From Eledone cirrhosa (taxonomy: Eukaryota), in the NCBI GenBank assembly GCA_964016885.1, contig OZ024742.1, forward strand, positions 12,958,001-13,022,000: a stretch of 64,000 nucleotides of DNA, given 5' to 3'. The position numbers and the translations under genes were made by a program. Under the pieces are notes generated by a model. It ran no database searches. It was not told the origin of the DNA and worked only from the letters and a program-made list of their open reading frames with translations. The first letter of the stretch is position 1. Each line of letters starts with the position of its first letter. Of this stretch, positions 2,196 to 60,709 are shown in pieces.

Positions 2196-2257
2196 ACTGC
2201 TATATATATATATATTTCGATGATAGTCATTGAATGGCTATGACCTCATCAGGCAGT
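2196..2257 (-). ncRNA. Type-I hammerhead ribozyme
   Basis: Reverse complement: actgc-CTGATGA-ggtcatagccattcaatgactatcatc-GAAA-(ta)n-TA-gcagt; related to the pLTR at 22966/26665. Confidence 0.8.
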
Positions 2258-4461: not shown

Positions 4462-6216
4462 CTATTGGGGTGATAACCCGTTTAGTTTTGGTTTAAATTT
4501 GTTAAGGAATAGATTTTCTTTGTTTATTCTTTGTTGCTGTGTGAACGAATATGAGCACTTGTAGAAGGGGAAGATTTTAAAGTTGGGTAGTGTCATTCCT
4601 GCGCAGTTCGCAATATGGCTGCTCAAGGGGATTTTTCTTGTGTTAGCGTCCCGGATTTGTTGGAGGTGGATGGTCATTCTTTTGCGTAATGTGGAGCCCG
4701 TCTGTCCTATGTAGTTGTGTTTGCACCCACTGCAAGTTATTGCGTAAATCAAGTTCTCCGAGTTGCAGGTGAAATTGTTTTTTACTGTAAATGTTTGGCC
4801 ATCTTTAAATGTAAATTTTTGTCCTTCAGTGAGGTAGAGACACGTTCCACAGTTTGTTCTACCACATTTGGTAACTGTAGGGTTGAGGATTGGTTTGGGT
4901 ATATTTGGTCCAGTGAGAATGCGTTTTAGTGATTTGGGTTGTCTTTTACTTTGAAGGATCTTGTGTGTTTCAAGAATAGACTTCATTTTTACATCTTTAA
5001 GTAGGATGGGGAGATTTTTGTGTAGGTGATCAAACATTTCGGTATTTCTGGGGTTGAAAGTGGATACATATGGCAGGGTGTTGAGTGTGGTTTTCTGTTT
5101 TTGATTGTTAAGTTGATGGGGATTTAGGTGTTTTGCCCTGTATATTCCATTGTTGATTATTTCAAGTGGAAAGGCTCTTAAGATAAGGGTGTCTCTTAGT
5201 TCCTTTAGTCTTTGCTCCCGTTTAGGTGGATCTGATACTATGGTACATATACGTTTGGCCAAATTGTAAGGAATGTTAAGTTTTGTATGTTTTGGGTGAC
5301 TTGATGTGAAAAAGAGGTATTGCTTGGAATCTGTGGGTTTATAGAATATATTTGTATCTAATTTCCCGTCTATTACAGAGATGAGAATATCCAAGAAGGC
5401 TAATTCCTTGGGATTGGATTCCATTGTGAATTGTATGTTATTATCTATGTTGTTTATCATGTTTTTAAACATAGTAAGTGAGTTCATGTCTTCTTGCCAT
5501 AGGATAAAGCAGTCGTCTAGATATCTTTTCCAATTGGCTTTGAGGTGTGTGTGAAAAGAGTCTCCAAATAAGAGAAGGGACTGACTGTATATTTGTTGTT
5601 CATGGAATCCCATGACTAGGTTGGCATATGTGGGTGCTACTTTCGTGCCCATTGCCGTACCTGATACTTGTCTGTATGTTGAACCATTGAATGTGAAGTA
5701 GTTATTTTGTAGGATAAAGCGGAGTCCGTCAGTGATAAAATCTTTCTTGATGCGTGTCGATATTTCTGATGGGTGTGTGTTAAGCCAGTATTGGACTGCT
5801 GTTATTCCATAGTTGTGGGGTATGTTTGTGTAGAGGTTTATTACGTCAAAGGAGACAAGAATTGTATTTGCACTTACCGTTTTAGGGAGGTGTTTCAGCA
5901 TGTCAAGGTCATCTCGTATGTAGCTCTGTATATGTTGTAGAAAGGGTTTCAGTAGGATGTCCAGAAAGTTGCTAAGTCTGTGGGTTTCACATGTAGGGCC
6001 TGCTATAATTGGCCTGAGTTTTAGGTCTTCTGGTGGTGTTAGTTCAATGTAATTGTTGGTTGAGGTGTCACATGCATTGCTTATGGGTTTACATTTGTGG
6101 AGTTTCGGTAAGCCGTAAAAAGAGCTTGTATTGCATTTGAAGTGGCTTATATAGTTAAACTCTTTTGTGGTTAAGCTGTTGCGGTATTTATTCAGTAAGG
6201 TCAAAAGGTTCCCCAT
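4462..6216 (-). CDS. PLE reverse transcriptase plus GIY-YIG endonuclease (584 aa, N-terminally truncated)
   Basis: FYGLPKLHK, LRPII, VSFDVINLYTNIP, GTAMGTKVAPTYANL, RYLDD, LAFLDI, SSHP, CGRTNCGTC, NLIYAITCSGC..YIGQT...RMTIH. Confidence 0.93.
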   Translation of the reverse strand: MGNLLTLLNKYRNSLTTKEFNYISHFKCNTSSFYGLPKLHKCKPISNACDTSTNNYIELTPPEDLKLRPIIAGPTCETHRLSNFLDILLKPFLQHIQSYIRDDLDMLKHLPKTVSANTILVSFDVINLYTNIPHNYGITAVQYWLNTHPSEISTRIKKDFITDGLRFILQNNYFTFNGSTYRQVSGTAMGTKVAPTYANLVMGFHEQQIYSQSLLLFGDSFHTHLKANWKRYLDDCFILWQEDMNSLTMFKNMINNIDNNIQFTMESNPKELAFLDILISVIDGKLDTNIFYKPTDSKQYLFFTSSHPKHTKLNIPYNLAKRICTIVSDPPKREQRLKELRDTLILRAFPLEIINNGIYRAKHLNPHQLNNQKQKTTLNTLPYVSTFNPRNTEMFDHLHKNLPILLKDVKMKSILETHKILQSKRQPKSLKRILTGPNIPKPILNPTVTKCGRTNCGTCLYLTEGQKFTFKDGQTFTVKNNFTCNSENLIYAITCSGCKHNYIGQTGSTLRKRMTIHLQQIRDANTRKIPLSSHIANCAGMTLPNFKIFPFYKCSYSFTQQQRINKENLFLNKFKPKLNGLSPQ

Positions 6217-6603
6217 TGTTTTGGTGTGTTTGTAGTTTCCTGTTTTTCATAGTATGTGTTGTTTTCTAAAATGTTAAGTGCGAGGGTCCTATAGTAGTCC
6301 GTATTCATAATGACAACAGTACCGGCTTCTTTGATAGTTATCTCAGGGTTGTTTCTAAGTGTGAATAATTCTTCCCATTCGTGTGTAGATAGGTTTGATT
6401 ATATGTGTATGTATATGTGTGTATATATGTGTATGTACACATATATATATATATATATGTGTGTGTTTGTGTGTGTGTGTATGTATGTGTATCTGGATGT
6501 ATGTGTATGTATATATATGTGTGTGTATATATATATGTGTGTGTATGTGTATATATGTGTGTGTGTATGTGTGTATGTATATGTATGTGTGTATGTATGT
6601 GTG

Positions 6604-7477: not shown

Positions 7478-7603
7478 ATTCGGCTAATTATTACCACGCT
7501 AAAAATTCTAATTTAGTCAAGAAGTAGCCGTCGAAACTACGTTACATATTGAGTACTCTGGTGCGTTATGGTCCATCTAATTCCTTACCACACCTCCTTC
7601 GTC

Positions 7604-16972: not shown

Positions 16973-17157
16973 CGAAGGAAATGTGGTAAGGAACCAGGTG
17001 GACCATAACGCACCAAAGTACTCAATACTTAGGGTAGTAGAGTGGGTAATAGGAACAAGTAAGACCCCGACGGCTGAGCTCAAGCCGTTTCGACGGCTTA
17101 TTCTGGACAGAATTAGCCGTCGAAACGGCTTGCTCAGCCGTCGGGGTCTTACTTGTT

Positions 17158-17162
<5 letters not shown>
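16970..17162. mobile_element. Fold-back element, family A
   Basis: Arms about 17049-17105 and 17108-17162; about 78-nt tail; (TA)n flanks. Confidence 0.85.
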
Positions 17163-20889: not shown

Positions 20890-22328
20890 ATACAAATAAA
20901 TAAATAATTAAATAAACGTATATAAATAAATAAATACGTATAACAAGCGCACACACATACCTACATGTAAATACACAAATGTTCGGAGACGTAAGTCAAC
21001 CAAAACATGAAGTACACATATACACACACCCTATATACGTACGAACCTGCATACTCACACAGACGCAAAACACCCGTATACACATAACCAAACCATATGT
21101 ACCAGAATATATAAAAATTATACGCTATAACATATACAATCAAATATACGTACAAGAAAGTATACGTACCTTCACAAAACATACAGGTAATATATACTTG
21201 CCGATGCAAATAAGTAATGGTATAAACAAAACATATACTTAGCTACCACATCAAGACGTAAAATATCCACGTATAGATCGTACTATCGGTTAGGGTATAA
21301 CGTGGGGCTGTAATACAGGAAAGTTTTGTGCAATTTATGTTTACAAGCCGAAATTGCCTCAGATTTTTTGTTTAAGATGTGGTCTGTGGCGTAGAGTATT
21401 TCCAGGGCCTCAGCGGCGCAGAGGTCACATGGTCTTTTATTTCCGTTATACGATCTAGCCCTAGCTAGGATCTCCCAGTGTAACTTATATTGGGTGTGGT
21501 TGTCTTTTAGACTCCAGATATAAGCCGAAAGTGACGTCATATTCCTTCTTAGAGAGTAACGAAAAGAATGGGTATGCATGTAAAGACGCTGCTTAAATCT
21601 ATTGGCGGTTAACCCTATGTAGGCCCTAAGGGACGTGGGTGTTTCAACCTTACATTTGTAGACAGTGTTACTAGAGAGGCATTTCCCGGATAGGGGACAA
21701 TCAACCCGATTCCTACAATTACAGTTAGTACTAACTACAGGGTTGCACATGTTCCTACGGCTAGGTAGTTTAGCTAAATTTGAAGCTGTGATGTTATGTG
21801 CAAGGTTAGGAGTCGTAGAGTAAGACATTTTAATAGTATTTCTATTAAAAATTTTACTATATTTATGTGTAGGGGGAAAATGCTTCATAATAAGGGAAAG
21901 AAAAATCTTAGCTAATGGTGTGGCCACCTCCATATTATATGGTGGGTTATACCAACAAATGCGACGGGTTCTATTTCTTCTAGGTCTATTTTCGTACTCT
22001 GTATATGCTACCTTATCGACAAATCCACTCCGAGCAAGAGCTTCATTGTAATAAGTGGAATGGTCGTTCAACGACCATAAACGTGGTTCTGTCTTTGCGC
22101 GTAATTGTTTTTCACCGCTCCTATTAATGACATATTATATTCATTTTTTCCCGTTCTTTGCCAGGGAACGTTTCCACGAACCAAAGTATCGTCTTCCTGT
22201 CTTCCTCCGGTTGCAACGTTTTTTTAAATATCCACTTCTGCGTTTACAGATTGACTTTGTTAGTTTCAGAAGATCCCGTTAAGGGTGAAAGCAGCGATTC
22301 TTTGCTTAAACTTTAATCTGTTATTTTA

Positions 22329-28912: not shown

Positions 28913-29251
28913 TAACAAAGGAATTGTGGTAAGGAACTAGATGGACCATAACGCACCAGAGTACTCAATACTTCGGGTAGTAGAGTGGGAAATAGGAAAA
29001 AGTATGACCTCGACGGCAGAGCTCAAGCCGTTTCGACGGCTATTTCTGGACTAAATTAGAATTTTTAGCCTGGTGAATAAATAGCCGAACTTTTCAAGGG
29101 GGTACTTCTTTATATGGGGTACTTCCTTATAAGGAAGTACCCCCTTGAAAAGTTCGGGTATTTATTGACCAGGCTAAAAATTCTAATTTAGTCCAGAAAT
29201 AGCCGTCGAAACGGCTTGAGCTCTGCCGTCGGTGTCATACTTTTCCCTATA
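28913..29251. mobile_element. Longest family A fold-back; complete U3-A8 HHR at 29141-29234 (+) and its mirror
   Basis: cccc-TTGAAAA(29145)-..tattt...aaata..-GAAA(29208)-cggc..gccg-TC-gg(g)g. Confidence 0.85.
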
Positions 29252-29556
29252 TATATATATATATATATATGGTATATATGTAACCATATATATATATATA
29301 TATAAATGAAAGGTATAGAAAACACTGCAGCGAAAAGCGAACAGCATTCCATAATATATAAGTGACTATAGCGTCAAAATGGGAAAAATCGTTAACGTAA
29401 GATGTGGGAAAAATAATTTAAACTCATCTCAAAGAGAATCAGGATATAAATTCATCCACAGAATTTAGTGAAATCCAGGGAAAAATCAATAGAGCCTTAA
29501 TTCATGATAAAATAAAGTTCAAAATACTTATCCTTCAATTTGGAAAAACTTCAAAT

Positions 29557-29635
29557 GCTCTGTATAGTCTTAAAGACTATTTCATGAAAACTTTCAGTGG
29601 AGATGGTCACGGTTGGAATTCATCATCAGCAGAGC
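29557..29635 (-). ncRNA. Canonical type-I hammerhead ribozyme
   Basis: Reverse complement: gctctg-CTGATGA-tgaa..ttcat-GAAA-tagtc.tttaa.gacta-TA-cagagc. Confidence 0.88.
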
Positions 29636-30183
29636 TCAACTCGATAACCAGGATTCTCACAGATTTATATGCCAAAAAGCGAATTCTAAAGCTGGCCAGT
29701 TCAACATCATGCGTGATTATGAAAAACGCACATGACGAAATACATGGCTATTGACGTCAGAATGAGACGAATGTTTGTTTACAAGAAACAGCAGTCAAAA
29801 ACATTCCGAAAAAAACTCTACAGTAAGGAGTTCAGCAAAATGCAATATTATCGCAGTTTTTTATTAAAAAAACCGGGATTAGTCACAAATAATTTAAGCA
29901 CTCGAGGAAAAAATCCGAGTATAAATATATAAATGAAAGGTATAGAAAACACTGCAGCGAAAAGCGAACAGCATTCCATAATATATAAGTGACTATAGCG
30001 TCAAAATGGGAAAAATAGTTAACGTAAGATGTGGGAAAAATAATTTAAACTCATCTCAAAGAGAATCAGGATATAAATTCATCCACAGAAATTAGTGAAA
30101 TCCAGGGAAAAATCAATAGAGCCTTAACTCATGATAATATAAAGTTCAAAATACTTATCCTTCAATTTGGAAAAACTTCAAAT

Positions 30184-30262
30184 GCTCTGTATAGTCTCAA
30201 AGACTATTTCATGAAAACTTTCAGTGGGGATGGTCACGGTTGGAACTCATCATCAGCAGAGC
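30184..30262 (-). ncRNA. Canonical type-I hammerhead ribozyme (second copy)
   Basis: Same fold as 29557-29635. Confidence 0.88.
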
Positions 30263-30277
30263 TCAACTCGATAACCA

Positions 30278-30336
<59 letters not shown>

Positions 30337-37734: not shown

Positions 37735-39372
37735 GTATCGGAACTCCATGCCAGGCTTTTTGAGTGGTTTATCCCCGCTATTATCTGTGTTTTAAGTCTC
37801 AGGTATCCATGCACCACTTTTTCTGTAAATTGGTCAATTTTTTCATCTTGTTTGAACATTGAATAGGATCTTCCGATTTCTCTGGGTGAGAGATTTATAT
37901 CAGGCTTTATTTCATATCTCTCCTCCAGATCAGTGGCTATTCTAATGATATATTTTTTCATACTCATAAACCTGGGCAAGATGGTTGCCAACCTTTTTCC
38001 TCTGTTGAGGGTGTTGCTTCAGTGTTACTACCCGGGTCTCATATGATGTTAATATGGATTTTAGACCCCGGTCACCTTCCCGGTCACCATTGATGTTAAA
38101 GTTCCCAGTAACACTGAGAAGTTTGCGAGTTCTAACATCCATCTCACTTAGTTCTTGCAATGACCAGTTCAGCAGGCCAAATGTTGGCGTTAGAATTGGC
38201 ACAGCATAGGTATTGTGGGCAATGTATTTGTTGTACGCTGACAGTTCTGATGACCATATTTTCTTTACTCTTCTGAGGTATTCAGTTCTGGTTCTCTCCT
38301 TATTTATGGATCCATCATATATGATATTCTCATCCTGTCCAAGATATCTGTAGTTGTCACCTGACTGTAGAGGTTGTATTGTCAGGCCGTTCATCTCTAG
38401 ATTTCTAGAGGAGGGCACAGCTCTTCCACGTTTTACTGCCAAATATGCACACTTGGACTCACCAAATTTCAGTTTGATGTCTGTTGAAAATTGTGTAATG
38501 AGGTCCAATTGTTTCTTGATGTCATTGATATTTGGCCCATACAACTTCAGGTCATCAACAAAGAATAGATGGGCGATACTTCTGGACCCACTTCTTTATC
38601 CACCTTGTTTCCTGAGTAGGTAAGATAGTGGATTTAGTGAGAGTACGAAGAGTAGCACTGACAAGCTATCACCCTGAAAGATGCCCTTCTGGTAATGTAT
38701 CTTATCCGTCTTAACTTGCTCCTTCTCACCTCTAAGGATCAAATTGGTGTACCAGTTCTTGGTCAGACGTTCAACAGCAGCTACCAGTGGTTGTGGGACT
38801 TTGGCTAACTGTAAAGCCTTAATAATCCACCCATGAGGTACACTATCAAATGCTTTTTGATAGTCCAGACACACCACAGTCATGTTTCTGCGATTCTTTG
38901 TTGTTTTTTCTTGAATCATTTTATTAGTTAGTAAGTGATCTATGCAACCCCACACCTCCCTCTTTCCACCAGCTTGCTCAGGTGTTATGATGTTGTTGGT
39001 AGCACAGTGATCATGTAAGAACAGGTTAAGGTACCCAGTATATAATTTATACATGATGTTTTGGCAGGCTATTGGGCGGTAATTTTTAGCAAGGGTCGTT
39101 TGGCTATTTTGGGGGAATGAAGAGAGTAGTGGCAGTTGATAACCAAACTGATTTAGGATCTCTGGCAAACAATCTATTTAGTACTTGTCGTTTATGTGCT
39201 GTTGACTTATATTTTAGTCTTTCTGTTGTAGCTGTGAGTTGTTGTTTCAACTGGTGTAATTTGGAGTTCAAAGTTTTAAATTTTGTATATCCAAATCGTC
39301 TCTCTAACTTTTTTTTTAGGTCTTCCTGGTGTCGTGTGAAGTTGCTCTCTGTGTTGCATTTCATAACGACTG
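37735..39372 (-). pseudogene. R4/Dong-like non-LTR retrotransposon RT fragment
   Basis: NYRPIAC, EQAGG, DYQKAFDSVPH, GIFQGDSLS, FVDD, YRYLG; near-identical to 41460-42870. Confidence 0.88.
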
Positions 39373-39488
39373 CGATGTGTGTATGTATGCGTGTATGTAT
39401 GAATGTATTTATGTATGCGTGTATTTATCTATGTATGTAAGAATGTATGTATGAATGTATGTATGTATGTATGTATGTATGTATGTAT

Positions 39489-40071
39489 GTCAGGTCACCA
39501 GTTTTGTGCTACTGGTAACATGTATCCCAGTACAACCTGTCTCATCGTCGGGTCGTTGGCGACTAAACTGGCAACCCCACCAAGCTTTCTTGGTGAGGAG
39601 GGTGACTTTGGAGATCCAAAGGGCAAAGGAGCTCTTCAGAGTCAATGGCCATCCAAAATCACCGGGAGAGATGACAACTTAGCCTTTGTCAAGGCAGAAT
39701 TCTAGGAGAAGGAAAACTCTGATATAACACCTGCAACCCTGATCGTATCCAATGATGTTGACTTGTTCTTCTTTTTGGTAAATATCATCTTGGTTAAGAG
39801 AGTGGGACTGGCTTTGTGCAGTGCCTTTGCTCACTATAAAAGCTTCACGGCACAGGCATTGCTTTATATCTGGAGACCTCTCTGCACTTGTCGTCACATG
39901 GTACCATGGGCCCAGCACTATGTGTCAATAATTGTCACAAGTGTAGTGTTTGTACCAGAGTTTTCAAGTCGCTGGCTGGACTAAAAAGTCACTCGTTATG
40001 CGCATCGGTAGGGGTTCTTCTACATGGATATAAAGTAGTGGCCGTACTCGAAAACGAGTTGGCAGCCACCA
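39489..40071 (+). mobile_element. RTE-derived non-autonomous element in (TATG)n
   Basis: gtcaggtcac...gagttggcagccacca, with a small internal deletion. Confidence 0.85.
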
Positions 40072-40183
40072 TGTATGTATGTGTGAATGTATGTATGTAT
40101 GTAAGAATGTATGTATGACTGTATGTATATATGTTTTAATGCATGTGTGTATGAATGTTTGTGTGTATGAATGTATGTATATG

Positions 40184-40456
40184 CACCTAGAAAGTTCCCC
40201 TCCGAGGCACAAGTCTCGGGGAGCAGTCGCCCATACATACCAGTCTCTCCACTCCTCGCCACCCATGTTGTCCAAGGGAAAGGCAATGGCCGACACAACT
40301 TGTGATGTAGGACTCATTTCTACAGCTGAGTAAACTGGAGCAACGTGAAATAAAGTGACTTGCTCAAGGACACAACACATCACCCGGTCCGGGAATCGAA
40401 CTCACAACCTCACGATTACAGGCACAACACCCTAACAACAAAGCCATTCACCTTCA
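40184..40456 (-). mobile_element. tRNA-derived SINE
   Basis: Reverse complement: GAGTTCGATTCCC B box, TGTGTCCTTGAGCAAGTCACTTTA..CTCCAGTTTACTCAGCTG. Confidence 0.78.
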
Positions 40457-40773
40457 CTGTGTATACATGTATATAAGTATGTACGTATTTATAAATGAAT
40501 GTATGTATGTGTATGTATGTATGTATGTATTTTTGTATGTATATAAGTGTATGTATGTGTGTATGTATGTAATTATGTATGTATGTATATATGTATGAGT
40601 GTATGTATGTAAGTATGTGTGTATGAAGTATGTATGTATCTATTTATGAGTGTATGTGTGTATATAAGTATGTATATATGCATGCATGTATGTTTTCTCT
40701 TTCTCTTAATTTCGAGTATATTTTTTTGACCGGCCACCTTCCTGGTGGCAAGGTTGTAAAAGAAAAGAAATTG

Positions 40774-42877
40774 TCATCCCTTGAATCGCAAGAATGTTTT
40801 GCAAATTTTGAAGGTGCCAGCTATCGCAGCCATTTGTAGACTATGAATTAGGGAGCTGCGCTTTTTGTCCGCAAATCCAAGTTCAGTCATACTTTGGTCC
40901 AAGCGGGTTGGTATATAACCCGTAGCACCAATAATGATGGGTATGAAGCTAAAGGTGTATCTTGGATACTGGATTTGTAAACTCCTCATCAATGGTCCGT
41001 AGATGTCCTCCTTCTCCTGTATTTTTCTGACAACGTTTACATCAAGTGGGCAGCTGATCTCCACAACAGAACACGTTTTCAATGTGTGGTCCCAAACTAC
41101 AATATCAGGCCGGTTGTGCTTTAATTTGGTGGCAGTTTTTATTTTCAGGTTCCACCAGTATTCCTTAGTGCCATCTGTCTCAATATATTCTTCCTCGTTT
41201 GTTGTTAATTTTGTTTTCCGAAGTGCGTTCCAGATGGTTCTAGCTATCCCATCGTGTCTCATGGGGAGGTAGTAGCGAGATGACATTCTTTCGCAGCTGG
41301 CAACAATGTGGCTTACATCCTCGATCTTTGTTTTACATAGCCTACATTTATTGTCAGCTGCTGGCCCTCCTCTTTTGTGCAGCAGATATTTGGCAGGGAG
41401 TTCTTGTTCTTGTATTGCATAGAGATATCCCTCAAGGTGTGATGTCATAAACTTGTCGGAACTCCATGCCAGGCTTTTTGAGTGGTTTATCCCCTCTATG
41501 GTCTGTGTTTTACGCCTCAAGTATCCATGCACAACTTTTTCTGTAAATTGGTCAATTTTTTTATCTTGTTTGAACATTGAATAGGATCTTCCGATTTCTC
41601 TGGGTGAGAGATTTATATCAGGCTTTATTCCATATCTCTCCTCCAGATCAGTCGCTATTCTAATGATATTTCTTTTTTTCATGGTCATAAACCTGGGCAA
41701 GATGGTTGCCAACCTTTTTCCTCTGTTGAAGGTGTTGCTTCAGTGTCACTATCCGGGTCTCATATGTTGTTAATATTGATTTTAGACCCCGGCCACCTTC
41801 CTTGTGTGAGAAGTATAGCCTATCCACATCACCATTGATGTTAAAGTTCCCAGTAACACTGAGAAGTTTTCGAGTTCTAACATCCATCTCACTTAGTTCT
41901 TGCAATGACCAGTTCAGTAGGCCAAATGTTGGCGTTAGAATTGGCACAGCATAAGTATTGTGGGCAATGTATTTGTTGTATGCTGACAGTTCTGATGACC
42001 ATATTTTCTTTACTCTTCTGAGGTATTCAGTTCTGGTTCTCTCCTTATTTATGGGTCCATCATATCTGACATTCTCATCCTGTCCAAGATATCTGTAGTT
42101 GTCACCTGACTGCAGAGGTTGTATTGTCAGGCCGTTCATCTCTAGATTTCTAGAGGAGGGCACAGCTCTTCCACGTTTTACTGCCAAATATGCACACTTG
42201 GACTCACCAAATTTCATTTTGATGTCGGTTGAAAATTGTGTAATGAGGTCCAATTGTTTCTTGATGTCATTGATATTTGGCCCATACAACTTCAGGTCAT
42301 CAACAAAGAAAAGATGGGAGATACTTCTGGTCCCACTTCTTTGTTCACCTTGTTTCCTGAGTAGGTAAGATAGTGGATTCAGTGAGAGATCGAAGAGTAG
42401 CACTGACAAGCTATCACCCTGAAAGATGCCCTTCTGGTAATGTATCTTATCAGTCTTAACCTGCTCCTTCTCACCTCCAAGGATCAAACTGGTGTACCAG
42501 TTCTTGGTCAGGCGTTCAACAGCAGCTACCAATGGTTGTGGGACTTTAGCTAACTGTAAAGCCTTAACAATCCACCCATGAGGTACACTATCAAATGCTT
42601 TTTGATAGTCCAGCCACACGACAGTCATGTTTCTGCGATTCTTTGTTGTTTTTTTCCTGAATCATTTTGTTAGTTAGTAGGTGATCTATGCAACCCCACA
42701 CCTCCCTCTTTCCACCAGCTTGCTCAGGTGTTATGATGTTGTTGGTAGCACAGTGATCCTGCAAGAACAGGTTAAGGCACCCAGTATATAATTTATACAT
42801 GATGTTTTGGCAGGCAATTGGGCGGTAATTTTTAGCAAGGGTGGTTTGGCTATTTTGGGGAATGAGGAGAGTAGAGG
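40774..42877 (-). pseudogene. R4/Dong-like LINE: RT, CCHC knuckle and restriction-like endonuclease, frameshifted
   Basis: FFVDD; CRLC..EDVSHIVASC; RHD; NRPDIVVWD..VVEISCP..KEDIY. Confidence 0.9.
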
Positions 42878-42984
42878 CAGTTTAGTCGCCAATGACCCGA
42901 CCATGAGACAGGTTGTACTGGGATACATATTACCAGTAGCACCAACTAGTGACCTGACATGTATGTATGTATGTATGTATGTAT

Positions 42985-43592
42985 GTCAGGTCACTAGTTG
43001 GTGCTACTGGTAACATGTATCCTAGAACAACCTGTCTCATGGTCGGGTCGTTGGCGACTAAACTGGCAACCCCACCATGGTTTCTTGGTGAGGAGGGTGA
43101 CTTTGGACATCCTGCAGGACTAACAACAAAACCTGTCAAAGGGCAAAGGAGCTCTTAAGAGTCAATGGCCATCCAAAATCATCGGGAGAGATGACCACTT
43201 AGCCTTTGTCAAGGCAGAATTCTAGGAGAAGGAAAACCCTGATATAAGACCTGCAACCCTGATGATATCCAATGATGTTGACTTGATCTTCTTTTTGGTA
43301 AATATCATCTTGGTTAAGAGAGTGGGACTGGCTTTTTGCAGTGCCTTTGCTCACTATAAAAGCTTCACGGCATAGGCATTGCTTTATATCTGGAGACCTC
43401 TCTGCACTTGTCGTCACATGGTACCATGGGCCCAGCACTATGTGTCAATAATTGTCACAAGTGTAGTGTTTGTACCAGAGTTTTCAAGTCGCTGGCTGGA
43501 CTAAAAGTCACACTCGTTCAGCGCATCGGTAGGGGTTCTCCTACATGGATATAAAGTAGTGGCCGTACTCGAAAACGAGTTGGCAGCCACCA
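42985..43592 (+). mobile_element. Full-length ~608-bp RTE-derived non-autonomous element in (TATG)n
   Basis: Same termini as the 39489 and 54172 copies; C2H2 remnant CSVCTRVFKSLAGLKSH; inverted copy of its 5' 80 nt at 42878-42958. Confidence 0.88.
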
Positions 43593-43698
43593 TGTATGTA
43601 TGTATGTATGTGTGAATGTATGTATGTATGTATGTATGTATGTATGTATGTATGTATGTATGTATGTATGTATGTATGTATGTATGTATGTATGTATG

Positions 43699-45676
43699 TA
43701 TGGTTTTCGTGCTGCACGCGGCACTATTGATATGATCTTCTCAGCTAGACAGCTCCAGGAGAAGTGCATGGAACAAGGTTTGGATCTGTATCGGGTTTTT
43801 GTCGATCTGACAAAAGCTTTCGATACTCTTAACAGAGATGCATTATGGAAGGTTCTCCAGAAACTTGGTTGCCCTGATAAGTTCCTTGCTTTAGTTAGGT
43901 CTTTCCATGACGACATGAAGGCTTGGGTTAATGTCGGAGGTAATATGTCGGAGCCTATCTCAGTAAAAAATGGAGTGAAACAGGGGGATATTCCAGCACC
44001 GACCCTGTTTGCCATATACTTTGCAATGGTTTTCTGTATTGCATTCAGGAATTGCGAGCATGGTGTTTACATCTGATATCGAAGCTCAGGCAGCATATTT
44101 AACATTAGGCGCTTTGCTGCAAAGACAAAAGTATGTACATCAATCATAAGAGACCTCTTGTATGCAGATGATTGCGATCTTGTAGCGCACACAGAGAGTG
44201 ATATGCAGCACATTTTGAATGCATTTTCTGACGCTTGCACTGCCCTAGGATTGACTGTCAGTCTCAAGAAAACCGTCGTCATGTACCAACCTGCCCCTGT
44301 TAAGCAGTACAGTGAACCAAATATCTATGTGTATGATAAACGACTTGGAGTGGTTGATCAGTTTGTCTACCTGGGAAGCACTGTTAATCGATACAGCAAC
44401 CTTGACAGTGAAATCTCACTTAGGATTAGAAAAGCAAGTGATGCTTTCGGAAAGCTAGAAAGGCGACTCTGGGGTCGGCGAGACATATGCAGGAGGACAA
44501 AGGTAAAGGTGTACAAGGCATGTGTGCTCTCTTGTCTTCTTTATGCCTGCGAGACCTGGGTCACATATCGACACCACCTTAAGCAATTGGAGCGTTTCCA
44601 TCAGATGTGTCTCAGACGGATCCACGGCGTTCACTGGAGGGACCACATCAGTGATGTTGAGATTTTGGAAAGCTCTATGTGTGACAGTATAGAAGCTCTT
44701 GTGCTTAAGCAACGACTCCGTTGGAGTGGTCACCTTGCCAGGATGAAGGATTCTAGAATACCAAAACAACTCTTTTATGGAGAGTTGGTTAAAGGAAAAC
44801 GACCGCCACATAAACCAAAAAAGAGGTATAAGGATTCCTTGAAAGCCTCTTTGAAAGACGCTAACATCTCTGCTGATACATGGGAGAATATTGCTGCTGA
44901 TCGTAATAAATGGAGAAAGACTGTATATGAGGGAAAAGTTGCCTTTGAGGCATCTCGAATCGCATACGAGAAAGTAAAGCGGGATGTGAGGAAGGACATT
45001 GCTGTTGCACTTCCAGACGGCGAGGGTCCTCCTATGGTGCTGACATGCAGCGTCTGTGCGAGACTCTGCCTAAGCAAAGCTGAACTCGAAAGTCATCTTC
45101 GCAGTCATAAAGTAAGACCAGTGGTTAACTACCAGGCTGCTGTTGGAGATGCTACTCATCATGCTTGCCAAACATATGGTAGAGAATGTAAATCAGCAGG
45201 AGGGCTCAAGCGACATGCAAAAGTACATGAACTCCAACCACAGCCGGCTATTCCCAGTGAATGTTTTGGTTGCCGACTCTGTGGAAGACATTTTAGATCA
45301 TTGGCTGGGCTAACAAGCCACATTCGATCGCAGCGCTGTTAGTTGCTATCGTGTGTGTGTATAGGTATGTTTATGTGTGTGCGTGTGTGTGTATATATAT
45401 ATATGTATATGTATATTATTATTGTTGCTGTTGTCGTTATTATTATTGTTGTTATTATTATTATTTTTATTATTGTTATTAATGTATATGTGTGTGTGTA
45501 TATATATATGTGTGTATATATGTATATGTATGTGTGTATATATATATATAGATAGATAGATAGATAGATATATATTTCTTTTTCTTATTTTATTTTATTT
45601 TTTATTTATTTATTAATATATAATTTTTTTTTTCCTCGTGCAATAGCCATACTCGATAACGAGGGGGCAGCCATCA
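43699..45676 (+). mobile_element. 5'-truncated RTE-clade LINE in (TATG)n
   Basis: YGFR..RGTIDMIF, FVDLTKAFD, GVKQG, LYADD, FVYLGS, LLYACETW, RLRWSGH..RM; in-frame stop at about 44074; ends ggcagccatca-(tgta)n. Confidence 0.92.
44158..45342 (+). CDS. RTE RT C-terminal half with three C2H2-like zinc fingers
   Basis: YADD; CSVC..H, CQTY..H..H, CRLC..H. Confidence 0.85.
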   Translation: MYADDCDLVAHTESDMQHILNAFSDACTALGLTVSLKKTVVMYQPAPVKQYSEPNIYVYDKRLGVVDQFVYLGSTVNRYSNLDSEISLRIRKASDAFGKLERRLWGRRDICRRTKVKVYKACVLSCLLYACETWVTYRHHLKQLERFHQMCLRRIHGVHWRDHISDVEILESSMCDSIEALVLKQRLRWSGHLARMKDSRIPKQLFYGELVKGKRPPHKPKKRYKDSLKASLKDANISADTWENIAADRNKWRKTVYEGKVAFEASRIAYEKVKRDVRKDIAVALPDGEGPPMVLTCSVCARLCLSKAELESHLRSHKVRPVVNYQAAVGDATHHACQTYGRECKSAGGLKRHAKVHELQPQPAIPSECFGCRLCGRHFRSLAGLTSHIRSQRC

Positions 45677-46505: not shown

Positions 46506-46695
46506 CGAAGGAATTGTGGTAAGGAACCAGATGGACCATAACGCACCAGAGTACGCAATACTCAGGGTAGTAGAGTGGGTAATAGGAAAAAGTATGATAC
46601 AGACGGCAGAGCTCAAGACGTTTCGACGGCTATTTTGTGAGTCCAGAAATAGCCGTCGAAACGGCTTGAGCTCTGCCATGGGGGTCATACCTTTT

Positions 46696-46700
<5 letters not shown>
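46503..46700. mobile_element. Fold-back element, family A
   Basis: Same tail and arm end (ttttcctat) as the other copies. Confidence 0.85.
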
Positions 46701-47447: not shown

Positions 47448-47498
47448 AGATTCTACAGGAGTAGAACTGTTTCAATCTTTAGAAATCATCAGGAATCT
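47448..47498 (-). ncRNA. Canonical type-I hammerhead ribozyme
   Basis: Reverse complement: agattc-CTGATGA-tttctaaagatt-GAAA-cag..ctg-TA-gaatct; family of 60573, 58760 and 7880. Confidence 0.8.
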
Positions 47499-56518: not shown

Positions 56519-57610
<1,092 letters not shown>

Positions 57611-60492: not shown

Positions 60493-60709
60493 TTTTTATT
60501 TTATAGAAGGAGCTTCTACAGGACTAGTACTGTTTCATTCAGATGAAATCTTCAGAACTTAATATGACACCCAGCTTCCTGAAGATTTCATCTGAATGAA
60601 ACAGTACTAGTCCTGTAGAAGCTCCTTCTATAAAATAAAAAAATTTTACTCTGCCATGTATTGAGTACCTTACTTACTGTGGTTATCCCCGACTCAACCC
60701 GGGACCTAC

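What the first reader, a model, noticed from the sequence alone, without database searches (positions are those of the whole stretch)
29304..30280. Clean 627-nt retrozyme: two canonical hammerheads in direct repeats
Seen: near-identical 350-bp repeats, each with an HHR (6-bp stem I, 5-bp stem III, AUA site), exactly 627 nt apart on the - strand, with no ORF, inside (TA)n. Double cleavage would release a 627-nt monomer able to circularise, as known for retrozymes.
Basis: partly seen in the sequence, partly recalled or inferred. Interest (0 to 1): 0.75.

Follow-up and report, generated by a model that had tools for sequence, protein, structure and literature searches.

The report
Animal retrozyme with self-pairing hammerhead loop
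This is a one-and-a-half-unit copy of a non-coding 627-base repeat found at thousands of places in an animal genome; it likely spreads with the enzymes of Penelope-type jumping genes, and its predicted self-cutting RNA motif carries a long conserved extra helix that may lock or tune cutting, which is untested.

Summary
Observation confirmed: two 350-355-bp repeats (7 mismatches), each with a type I hammerhead (AUA site), cut sites exactly 627 nt apart, no ORF, in (TA)n. Two corrections. (1) The repeats are not LTRs: this is a 1.56-unit piece of a tandem 627-nt unit with thousands of copies (2,246 exact loop matches; 4,380 exact 3' ends). Copies share one 3' end in (TA)n, have scattered 5' ends, and range from 56-bp tails to 50-unit arrays: the Penelope-type insertion footprint of an animal non-LTR retrozyme. 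None of 207 loci continued into a PLE ORF; the helper was not found. (2) The hammerheads are not canonical: helix II is one base short at the core, and the 30-nt loop II pairs with the 5' flank over about 19 bp, with compensatory changes across subfamilies. This helix is either an activating pseudoknot or a self-pairing lock; a published study inferred that animal retrozymes lack such a lock. 5' ends do not pile up at the cut site, so the template is a circle or an uncut multimer. Cleavage, expression and circles are untested. The scan reported other retrozyme families in this genome; a sequence look-up for this one returned nothing.

The parts
29298..30279 (-). Whole insertion: 1.56 units of a 627-nt tandem non-coding retroelement; 5'-truncated at 30279, family-fixed 3' end at about 29298-29303
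29653..30279 (-). Upstream full unit (q1-627 in this report)
29298..29652 (-). Terminal partial unit (q1-355); 7 mismatches to the upstream unit (2.1% over 340 compared sites)
30184..30262 (-). Hammerhead 1, type I: helix I 30262-30257/30189-30184, core CUGAUGA 30256-30250, GAAA 30210-30207, helix III 30206-30192, predicted cut between 30190 and 30189. Lacks the distal strand of the extra helix because of the 5' truncation.
   Evidence: sequence
29557..29635 (-). Hammerhead 2, type I: core 29629-29623, helix II 29622-29619/29588-29585 with an unpaired U at 29584, GAAA 29583-29580, predicted cut between 29563 and 29562
   Evidence: sequence
29637..29662 (-). 5' strand of the extra helix H (distal part 29662-29655, proximal part 29650-29637)
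   Evidence: covariation; duplex energy
29595..29615 (-). 3' strand of helix H, inside loop II of hammerhead 2 (30242-30222 in hammerhead 1)
   Evidence: 22-nt pattern with 2,246 genome matches
29563..30189 (-). Predicted 627-nt cut-to-cut monomer (circular MFE -133.7 kcal/mol, z -3.3 against 30 dinucleotide shuffles)
   Evidence: existence as RNA untested
29917..29934 (-). Internal TA-rich site (UUUAUAUAUUUAUA) at which all terminal units end; inferred priming site that anneals to nicked (TA)n
   Evidence: sequence; 127 of 138 loci end here
29353..29362 (-). Second TA-rich site (q291-300; 29989-29980 in the upstream unit), about 59 nt from the 3' end; preferred 5' junction of short copies
   Evidence: 16 of 40 copies start at q292-295
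29752..29759 (-). TGACGTCA (CRE-like, label recalled) at q521, upstream of hammerhead 2; candidate internal promoter element, inferred only
30280..30333 (.). (TA)27 target tract, 5' side
29248..29304 (.). (TA)n target tract, 3' side

Best explanation
This is a 5'-truncated 1.56-unit copy of a high-copy non-coding 627-nt tandem repeat with one type I hammerhead motif per unit, likely a non-autonomous Penelope-type retroelement (animal non-LTR retrozyme) whose predicted self-cut RNA is likely circularised and copied into (TA)n tracts by a borrowed enzyme. Steps: (1, inferred) multi-unit copies are transcribed. (2, inferred from conservation, untested) the hammerhead cuts once per unit and host ligase closes the monomer. 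(3, inferred) a PLE endonuclease nicks (TA)n and the 3'-OH anneals to the unit's own TA-rich site 262 nt downstream of the cut. (4, shown as footprint) DNA synthesis starts at that one site, runs through the cut site without a stop and ends at variable points, often at a second TA-rich site 59 nt in. (5, shown) a few multi-unit copies later grew into about 50-unit satellites by DNA recombination. The loop II/5' flank helix is shown by covariation. Its role is inferred: the proximal 12 bp likely act as the helix I-II contact, and the full 19 bp likely hold the ribozyme off. This window copy could release a monomer only by read-through from outside, since it starts just upstream of hammerhead 1.
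For: Fixed 3' end in 127 of 138 loci, 5' ends spread over all 50-nt bins, inverted pieces in 5 of 138. 4,380 exact 3'-end-plus-(TA)n matches. Arrays of about 51, 47 and 8 units have the same 3' end and higher-order repeats. No PBS, PPT or TG..CA at the repeat borders. Partial tandems, 5' truncation, inversions, short tails and (TA)n bias are described PLE features (PMC8557442). Ribozyme under selection: subfamily majorities differ at N7 (U, G, A) with the other core bases fixed. Compensatory pairs: helix I G-C 85 / A-U 24 and U-A 110 / A-U 4 of 115 loci; helix II ACGA/UCGU against AUGA/UCAU. Structure count on 49 rows: 91.8% of cells paired, 7 pairs with double changes, 0 of 500 shuffles reach the covariation score, slid controls 34-45% paired. 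No pile-up of 5' ends at the cut site (3 of 138 within q85-97; none of 40 near 262 nt), so a cut linear monomer is not the template. Units of one insertion behave like copies of one template: sisters in 21 of 48 pairs among 173 tips, no clade of upstream units only; 12 private variants shared by both units against about 0.08 expected. Intact, young PLE families exist in the genome.
Against: No autonomous partner found: two PLE families tested share no sequence with the unit and showed no family-wide hammerhead in the loci scanned. The single-template signs also fit an uncut transcript of a homogeneous array or gene conversion. Mean within-insertion divergence (0.034) is not below the nearest-other-copy distance (0.032), and it exceeds both neighbours in 23 of 48 loci. 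L008 carries a core change (G5C) in both hammerheads, which a self-cut circle should not transmit. Position q35 differs between terminal and upstream units in one direction in 7 loci against 0. The window-type hammerhead has an unpaired U before G12, of unknown effect. Covariation rests on few phylogenetic events in one genome. 1 of 9 Xenopus dimers cleaved.
Confidence: 0.8

Rival explanations
1. Same family and same PLE mobilisation, but the template is an uncut multi-unit transcript (from dimers or satellite arrays), not a circle; the hammerhead only trims host read-through RNA or is partly dormant.
For: Long arrays exist. Both hammerheads of L008 share G5C. q35 is directional, 7 against 0. 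The helix-II-short variant spread twice. Hammerhead helix I is predicted formed in only 3 of 36 circles.
Against: Median insertion is about 57 bp and 0 of 40 hold two hammerheads, so length must be regenerated. The 51-unit array has helix III loop variants not seen in the dispersed copies of its subfamily that I aligned. Every subfamily-diagnostic change is present in both terminal and upstream units, and there is no upstream-only clade. Excluding q35, same- and opposite-direction differences are 89 against 75.
Confidence: 0.3
2. A plant-type LTR retrozyme: two 350-bp LTRs around a 277-bp core, mobilised by LTR-retrotransposon machinery.
For: Repeat length (350 bp) and monomer size (627 nt) fit the plant description (PMC6765202).
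Against: Type I, not type III, hammerhead. No PBS, PPT or TG..CA. Unit number and 5' end vary freely while the 3' end is fixed.
Confidence: 0.02
3. The repeats are simply the pseudo-LTR debris of an autonomous PLE whose ORF was lost by 5' truncation.
For: PLE-type ends; PLE pLTRs carry type I hammerheads (PMC4209133); an earlier unchecked note reports large-loop hammerheads in autonomous PLEs of this genome (e1-8668821).
Against: Upstream of the hammerhead every long copy continues into the previous 627-nt unit, not into an ORF; 0 of 207 loci attached (HSP maps plus tblastn with 9 window PLE fragments). The unit evolved as a ladder of non-coding subfamilies over about 25% divergence.
Confidence: 0.05
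4. Helix H is only a constitutive activating pseudoknot, as in many hammerheads, with no locking role.
For: About 40% of hammerheads use a helix I-II pseudoknot (PMC3088659). H uses no base of helices I-III and covaries together with them. It would compensate for the weak helix II.
Against: The examples in the passages read are 4-6 bp; here covariation extends to a distal segment (U-A 97 / C-G 21; A-U 51 / U-U 69), giving about 19 bp that a 6-nt linker must span (geometric argument, not modelled). In pseudoknot-free folding H outcompetes helix I (15 against 3 of 36 circles above 0.5).
Confidence: 0.45

Closest known systems
Metazoan non-LTR retrozymes (coral, mussel, axolotl; Cervera and de la Pena 2020, PMC7229834, parts 2-4 of 6 read; Li, Clavereau and Pollet 2026, 10.64898/2026.07.22.740005, parts 1-3 of 5 read)
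   Same: Non-coding tandem unit, one type I hammerhead per unit, low GC (33%), no LTR/PBS/PPT, dimers to long arrays, co-existing PLEs; a U-U base of helix II as in axolotl HHR_Amex2 occurs in two subfamilies here.
   Different: Unit 619-637 nt (above the 150-450 bp of the 2020 paper, inside the 51-972 bp of the 2026 preprint); 30-nt loop II forming an about 19-bp covarying helix with the 5' flank; long helix III; AUA site; extra U before G12 in this subfamily; expression and circles not shown.
Penelope-like elements, EN+ (Neptune/Naiad-type (TA)n targeting) and their non-autonomous derivatives (Craig et al. 2021, PMC8557442, 12 passages read)
   Same: Partial tandems, fixed 3' end, heavy 5' truncation, occasional inverted arm, short tail, (TA)n targets.
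   Different: No ORF; no sequence link to the two PLE families tested; tail is 56-59 bp rather than 30-40 bp; two-armed insertions are rare.
Plant LTR retrozymes (PMC4918200, listing only; described from PMC6765202 passages and PMC7229834)
   Same: 350-bp direct repeats with a hammerhead each; 600-1000-nt circle size; ribozyme predicted blocked by a complementary strand.
   Different: Type III hammerhead, PBS, PPT, 4-bp TSD and fixed ends are all absent here (TSD not testable in (TA)n).
Pseudoknotted hammerheads (Perreault et al. 2011, PMC3088659, 12 passages read) and the satRPV hammerhead (Song et al. 1999; title seen in reference lists only, details recalled)
   Same: Watson-Crick contact between the helix I and helix II regions; weak or U-U-based helix II tolerated; an alternative structure competing with cleavage is named in the satRPV title.
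   Different: The contact here is three to four times longer than the examples read, lies between loop II and the 5' flank, and sits in an animal retroelement.

Membership tests
Metazoan non-LTR retrozyme | Tandem non-coding unit with a type I hammerhead in each unit | tested here: met
   longest frame 53 aa sense
Metazoan non-LTR retrozyme | [quoted passage not shown] | tested here: met
   window copy; 37 of 138 loci (sample biased to long copies); 0 of 40 in the 3'-end sample
Metazoan non-LTR retrozyme | No LTR, PBS or PPT | tested here: met
Metazoan non-LTR retrozyme | Self-cleavage of the transcript | not testable with these tools
   only conservation and covariation
Metazoan non-LTR retrozyme | Accumulates as circular and linear monomer RNA | not testable with these tools
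   no run on record as RNA was available
Canonical type I hammerhead | Core C3-A9, G12-A15.1, U16.1, H17 with helices I and III | tested here: met
Canonical type I hammerhead | 10.1-11.1 pair directly between A9 and G12 | tested here: not met
   one base short on the 5' strand; unpaired U before G12 or out-of-register U-U; Rfam no hit
Non-autonomous Penelope-like element | Fixed 3' end, variable 5' truncation, partial tandems, inversions | tested here: met
   127 of 138 fixed 3' ends; 5 of 138 with inverted pieces; L282 two-armed
Non-autonomous Penelope-like element | Microsatellite (TA)n target bias | tested here: met
Non-autonomous Penelope-like element | 3'-end or pLTR similarity to an autonomous PLE | tested here: inconclusive
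   none to 2 families tested; the genome holds many more families that were not tested
Plant LTR retrozyme | Type III hammerhead in LTRs | tested here: not met
   type I topology
Plant LTR retrozyme | PBS and PPT inside the LTRs; both ends fixed | tested here: not met
Plant LTR retrozyme | 4-bp target-site duplication | tested here: inconclusive
   both flanks are (TA)n
Autonomous PLE | RT plus GIY-YIG ORF between the repeats | tested here: not met
   0 of 207 loci attached to an ORF

The most novel reading that the evidence does not exclude
An animal retrozyme with a built-in RNA switch: an about 19-bp helix between loop II and the 5' flank, kept by compensatory changes through the family's history, locks the hammerhead off in the circle while its proximal half serves as the activating pseudoknot during transcription. 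This would be the self-pairing block that animal retrozyme circles were inferred to lack, and the circle is the template that a Penelope reverse transcriptase copies from one internal TA-rich priming site.
Probability: 0.3. Interest if true: 0.68.

Novelty: new variant of a known kind. Interest (0 to 1): 0.45.

Why it matters
The class is known, so the element as such is a new member. Two things add value. First, the published model leaves open how hammerheads in animal retrozyme circles avoid re-cutting, and concludes the block is 'other than self-pairing' (PMC7229834). This family offers a covarying long helix and a natural series of helix II variants, including a one-base loss that arose twice and was once repaired, which makes that question directly testable with a handful of constructs. 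Second, thousands of insertions record where the reverse transcriptase starts (one TA-rich site 262 nt past the cut) and that it does not stop at the cut site, which is genomic support for the proposed but unshown PLE-driven copying of retrozyme RNA.

Tried and rejected
Rfam: no hammerhead family listed (one search was swamped by microsatellite hits, 150 of 229 rows shown). Expression: no RNA holder listed; the three runs laid are contigs of one sample and say nothing on expression. Helper search: the window's Neptune-type family (30 loci; 14 scanned for hammerheads, all 30 by blastn) and a second PLE family (30 loci) share no terminal sequence with the unit; the oldest branch of the family (30 loci) is also non-coding. 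A-to-I editing scars (lead from e1-8803865): none, A>G 5.9 against T>C 7.6 per 1,000 sites, p 0.11, 116 of 166 loci analysed. A second fixed 3' end: pattern at q324 matched once; pattern at q292 matched 14 times, of which 6 end there and 1 is two-armed, against 4,380 at the main end; so two-armed insertion is not the rule here. Hypervariable junction idea: the bulge and linker of helix H vary most in the old subfamily but other windows vary as much; rejected as a ligation-site mark. One search used a misregistered structure string and is void; one search replaces it. Lunse et al. 2017 (PMC5785218) was not held, so its variants could not be compared. Literature searches for this architecture showed no cephalopod retrozyme paper and no 20-bp loop II helix; the library lacks most subscription papers, and I read no supplements (supplementary figures of PMC7229834, PMC3088659 and PMC4209133 show more hammerhead variants and may bear on novelty).

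Full report
Observation. On the minus strand 30279-29925 repeats as 29652-29298 at a spacing of 627 with 7 mismatches. Each repeat starts with a type I hammerhead motif: helix I GCUCUG/CAGAGC, core CUGAUGA, GAAA, a 6-bp helix III and an AUA triplet with H17 at 30190 and 29563. The cut-to-cut piece is 627 nt. There is no ORF (53 aa longest sense frame) and (TA)n lies on both sides. Rfam lists no hammerhead here, which the long loop II probably explains (inference).

The family. A DNA search of the own genome (G000, 3.0 Gb, animal-type; earlier unchecked notes call it cephalopod, which I did not test) gave 3,214 candidates, 29 scored. Exact patterns give whole counts: 2,246 for a 22-nt loop II motif, 244 and 137 for two core variants, 4,380 for the 3' end plus (TA)n; all controls were 0. 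In 138 non-redundant loci (duplicates and internal array windows dropped) the 3' end lies at q345-365 in 127, the 5' end falls in every 50-nt bin, and 5 have an inverted piece. This set is biased to hammerhead-bearing and long copies. In 40 copies picked only by their 3' end (from the first listed on contig 1), the median length is about 57 bp, 16 start at a second TA-rich site at q292-295, 7 reach a hammerhead and none holds two. Arrays of about 51, 47 and 8 units end at the same 3' point and show higher-order repeats, so they grew in place. The window's '350-bp repeats' are therefore the overlap of a 1.56-unit tandem, not LTRs; there is no PBS, PPT or TG..CA border. Partial tandems, 5' truncation, inversions, short tails and (TA)n bias are the described footprint of Penelope-like elements (PMC8557442, passages), and animal non-LTR retrozymes are proposed to be their non-autonomous derivatives (PMC7229834; 10.64898/2026.07.22.740005).

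No ORF-linked copy. HSP maps and tblastn with 9 PLE fragments from the window found PLE pieces in flanks but none continuous with the unit in 207 loci (flanks 1.5-3.5 kb). Two young PLE families with intact ORFs exist in the genome, but neither shares sequence with the unit. The helper is unidentified.

The ribozyme is selected but not canonical. Subfamilies diverge by up to about 25%, yet their majority cores differ only at N7. Helix I shows G-C/A-U (85/24) and U-A/A-U (110/4) swaps in 115 loci, and helix II runs ACGA/UCGU, UCGA/UCGU, UUGA/UCAU and AUGA/UCAU (this count required an intact core, so it is not itself a test of core conservation). A tree of 119 terminal units is a ladder in that order. 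The window type, one base short on the 5' strand of helix II, arose twice from the UUGA type, and the perfect AUGA type is nested inside one of these clades. So the window's hammerheads have an unpaired U before G12 or an out-of-register U-U. A U10.1-U11.1 base is known to be tolerated (PMC3088659; axolotl Amex2); the extra U at this place I did not find described. The variant kept spreading and later gained a compensatory pair in helix H, which suggests that it is tolerated (inference).

Helix H. Loop II (30 nt) is complementary to the 5' flank of helix I over about 19 bp: a proximal 12 bp and a distal 7-8 bp after a 4-nt bulge. On a 49-row alignment the proximal part plus helices I-III gives 91.8% paired cells, 7 pairs with changes on both sides, and a covariation score reached by 0 of 500 shuffles; slid controls pair 34-45% (related sequences inflate such scores). 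One proximal pair is G-C 89, G-U 16, A-U 5, A-C 0. One distal pair is U-A 97, C-G 21, others 6. The duplex is -15.9 kcal/mol against -8.8 +/- 2.7 for shuffles (27 of 2,000 as low). H uses no base of helices I-III, so it could be a pseudoknot, as in about 40% of hammerheads, where the examples read are 4-6 bp. Spanning all 19 bp with the 6-nt linker looks strained (my geometric estimate). In pseudoknot-free ensembles of 36 natural circles, H exceeds 0.5 in 15 and helix I in 3; in the window's own circle neither does (0.06 and 0.14). A lock is thus plausible but not shown. Cervera and de la Pena predicted freely folding hammerheads in most animal circles and inferred a block other than self-pairing.

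What is copied. Synthesis starts 262 nt downstream of the cut, at a TA-rich site in the unit. A cut linear monomer would give 5' ends at q91; only 3 of 138 start within q85-97 and none of 40 is near 262 nt. The template is therefore a circle or an uncut multimer. For one template per insertion: terminal and upstream units are sisters in 21 of 48 pairs among 173 tips, with no upstream-only clade; 12 private variants are shared by both units against about 0.08 expected; 48 shared against 522 unshared variants in 116 loci. Against: within-insertion divergence is not lower than the nearest-neighbour distance (0.034 against 0.032), L008 has G5C in both cores, and q35 is C in the terminal and T in the upstream unit in 7 loci against 0. 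Both common changes at q34-35 perfect a short inverted repeat, so a hairpin-correction hot spot may explain this (inference). I put the circle at about 0.6 and the uncut multimer at about 0.3. No editing scars were found.

This copy. Its two repeats differ by 2.1%, so it is not freshly inserted. It begins about 17 nt upstream of helix I and lacks the distal strand of H and any internal promoter ahead of hammerhead 1 (promoter position inferred from a CRE-like motif at q521). A monomer from this locus would need read-through transcription. In Xenopus only 1 of 9 such dimers cleaved.

Verdict. A real, well-supported new family of animal non-LTR retrozymes with a Penelope footprint and an unusual hammerhead periphery. 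The scan has reported several other retrozyme families in this genome; the look-up by sequence returned nothing for this one. Interest 0.45: the class is known, but the covarying helix and the natural helix II series make a stated open question testable.

Noticed in passing
window 4465-6246 (-): 594-aa stop-free PLE ORF fragment (RVT_1 plus GIY-YIG; CxxxxCxxC linker, Neptune-type label recalled); 74 scored genome copies at 96-100% identity, many in 777-aa open frames: a young, probably active family without a standard hammerhead in the 14 loci scanned.
   Followed up: partly
window 21286-22134 (-): Fragment of a second abundant PLE family; 137 scored copies at about 93%, open frames up to about 713 aa; no family-wide standard hammerhead in 30 loci.
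   Followed up: partly
window 28940-29246 (-): Directly beside the element: a 260-bp palindrome from another repeat family that holds a GAAAC-helix III-GUC half hammerhead without the usual upstream core; further copies at 1904-2044, 7479-7577, 16999-17162 and 46530-46700. May be the scrambled-order hammerhead family of earlier notes; not tested.
   Followed up: no
window 47454-47492 (-), 60579-60617 (+), 2201-2252 (-): Three other small type I hammerhead motifs of unrelated families; the one at 60.6 kb lies in a short inverted duplication.
   Followed up: no
window 56793-56862 (-) and 57418-57487 (+): Head-to-head pair of another hammerhead family with a long (49-nt) helix II region, UU cut site and one arm ending in (TA)n.
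   Followed up: no
L121-L124 (G000:C3:161.51-161.54 Mb), L125-L128 (G000:C2:378.11-378.14 Mb), L129: Satellite arrays of about 51, 47 and 8 units of this element with higher-order repeats and accumulating core mutations.
   Followed up: partly
   Followed up: partly
q34-35 of the unit (window 30246-30245, 29619-29618): Linker bases differ between units of one insertion more often than other sites, in one direction 7 against 0; unexplained.
   Followed up: partly
window 37942-45342: Several non-LTR RT fragments on both strands (RVT_1 hits at 41663-42661 and 44077-45339, the latter with C2H2 fingers).
   Followed up: no
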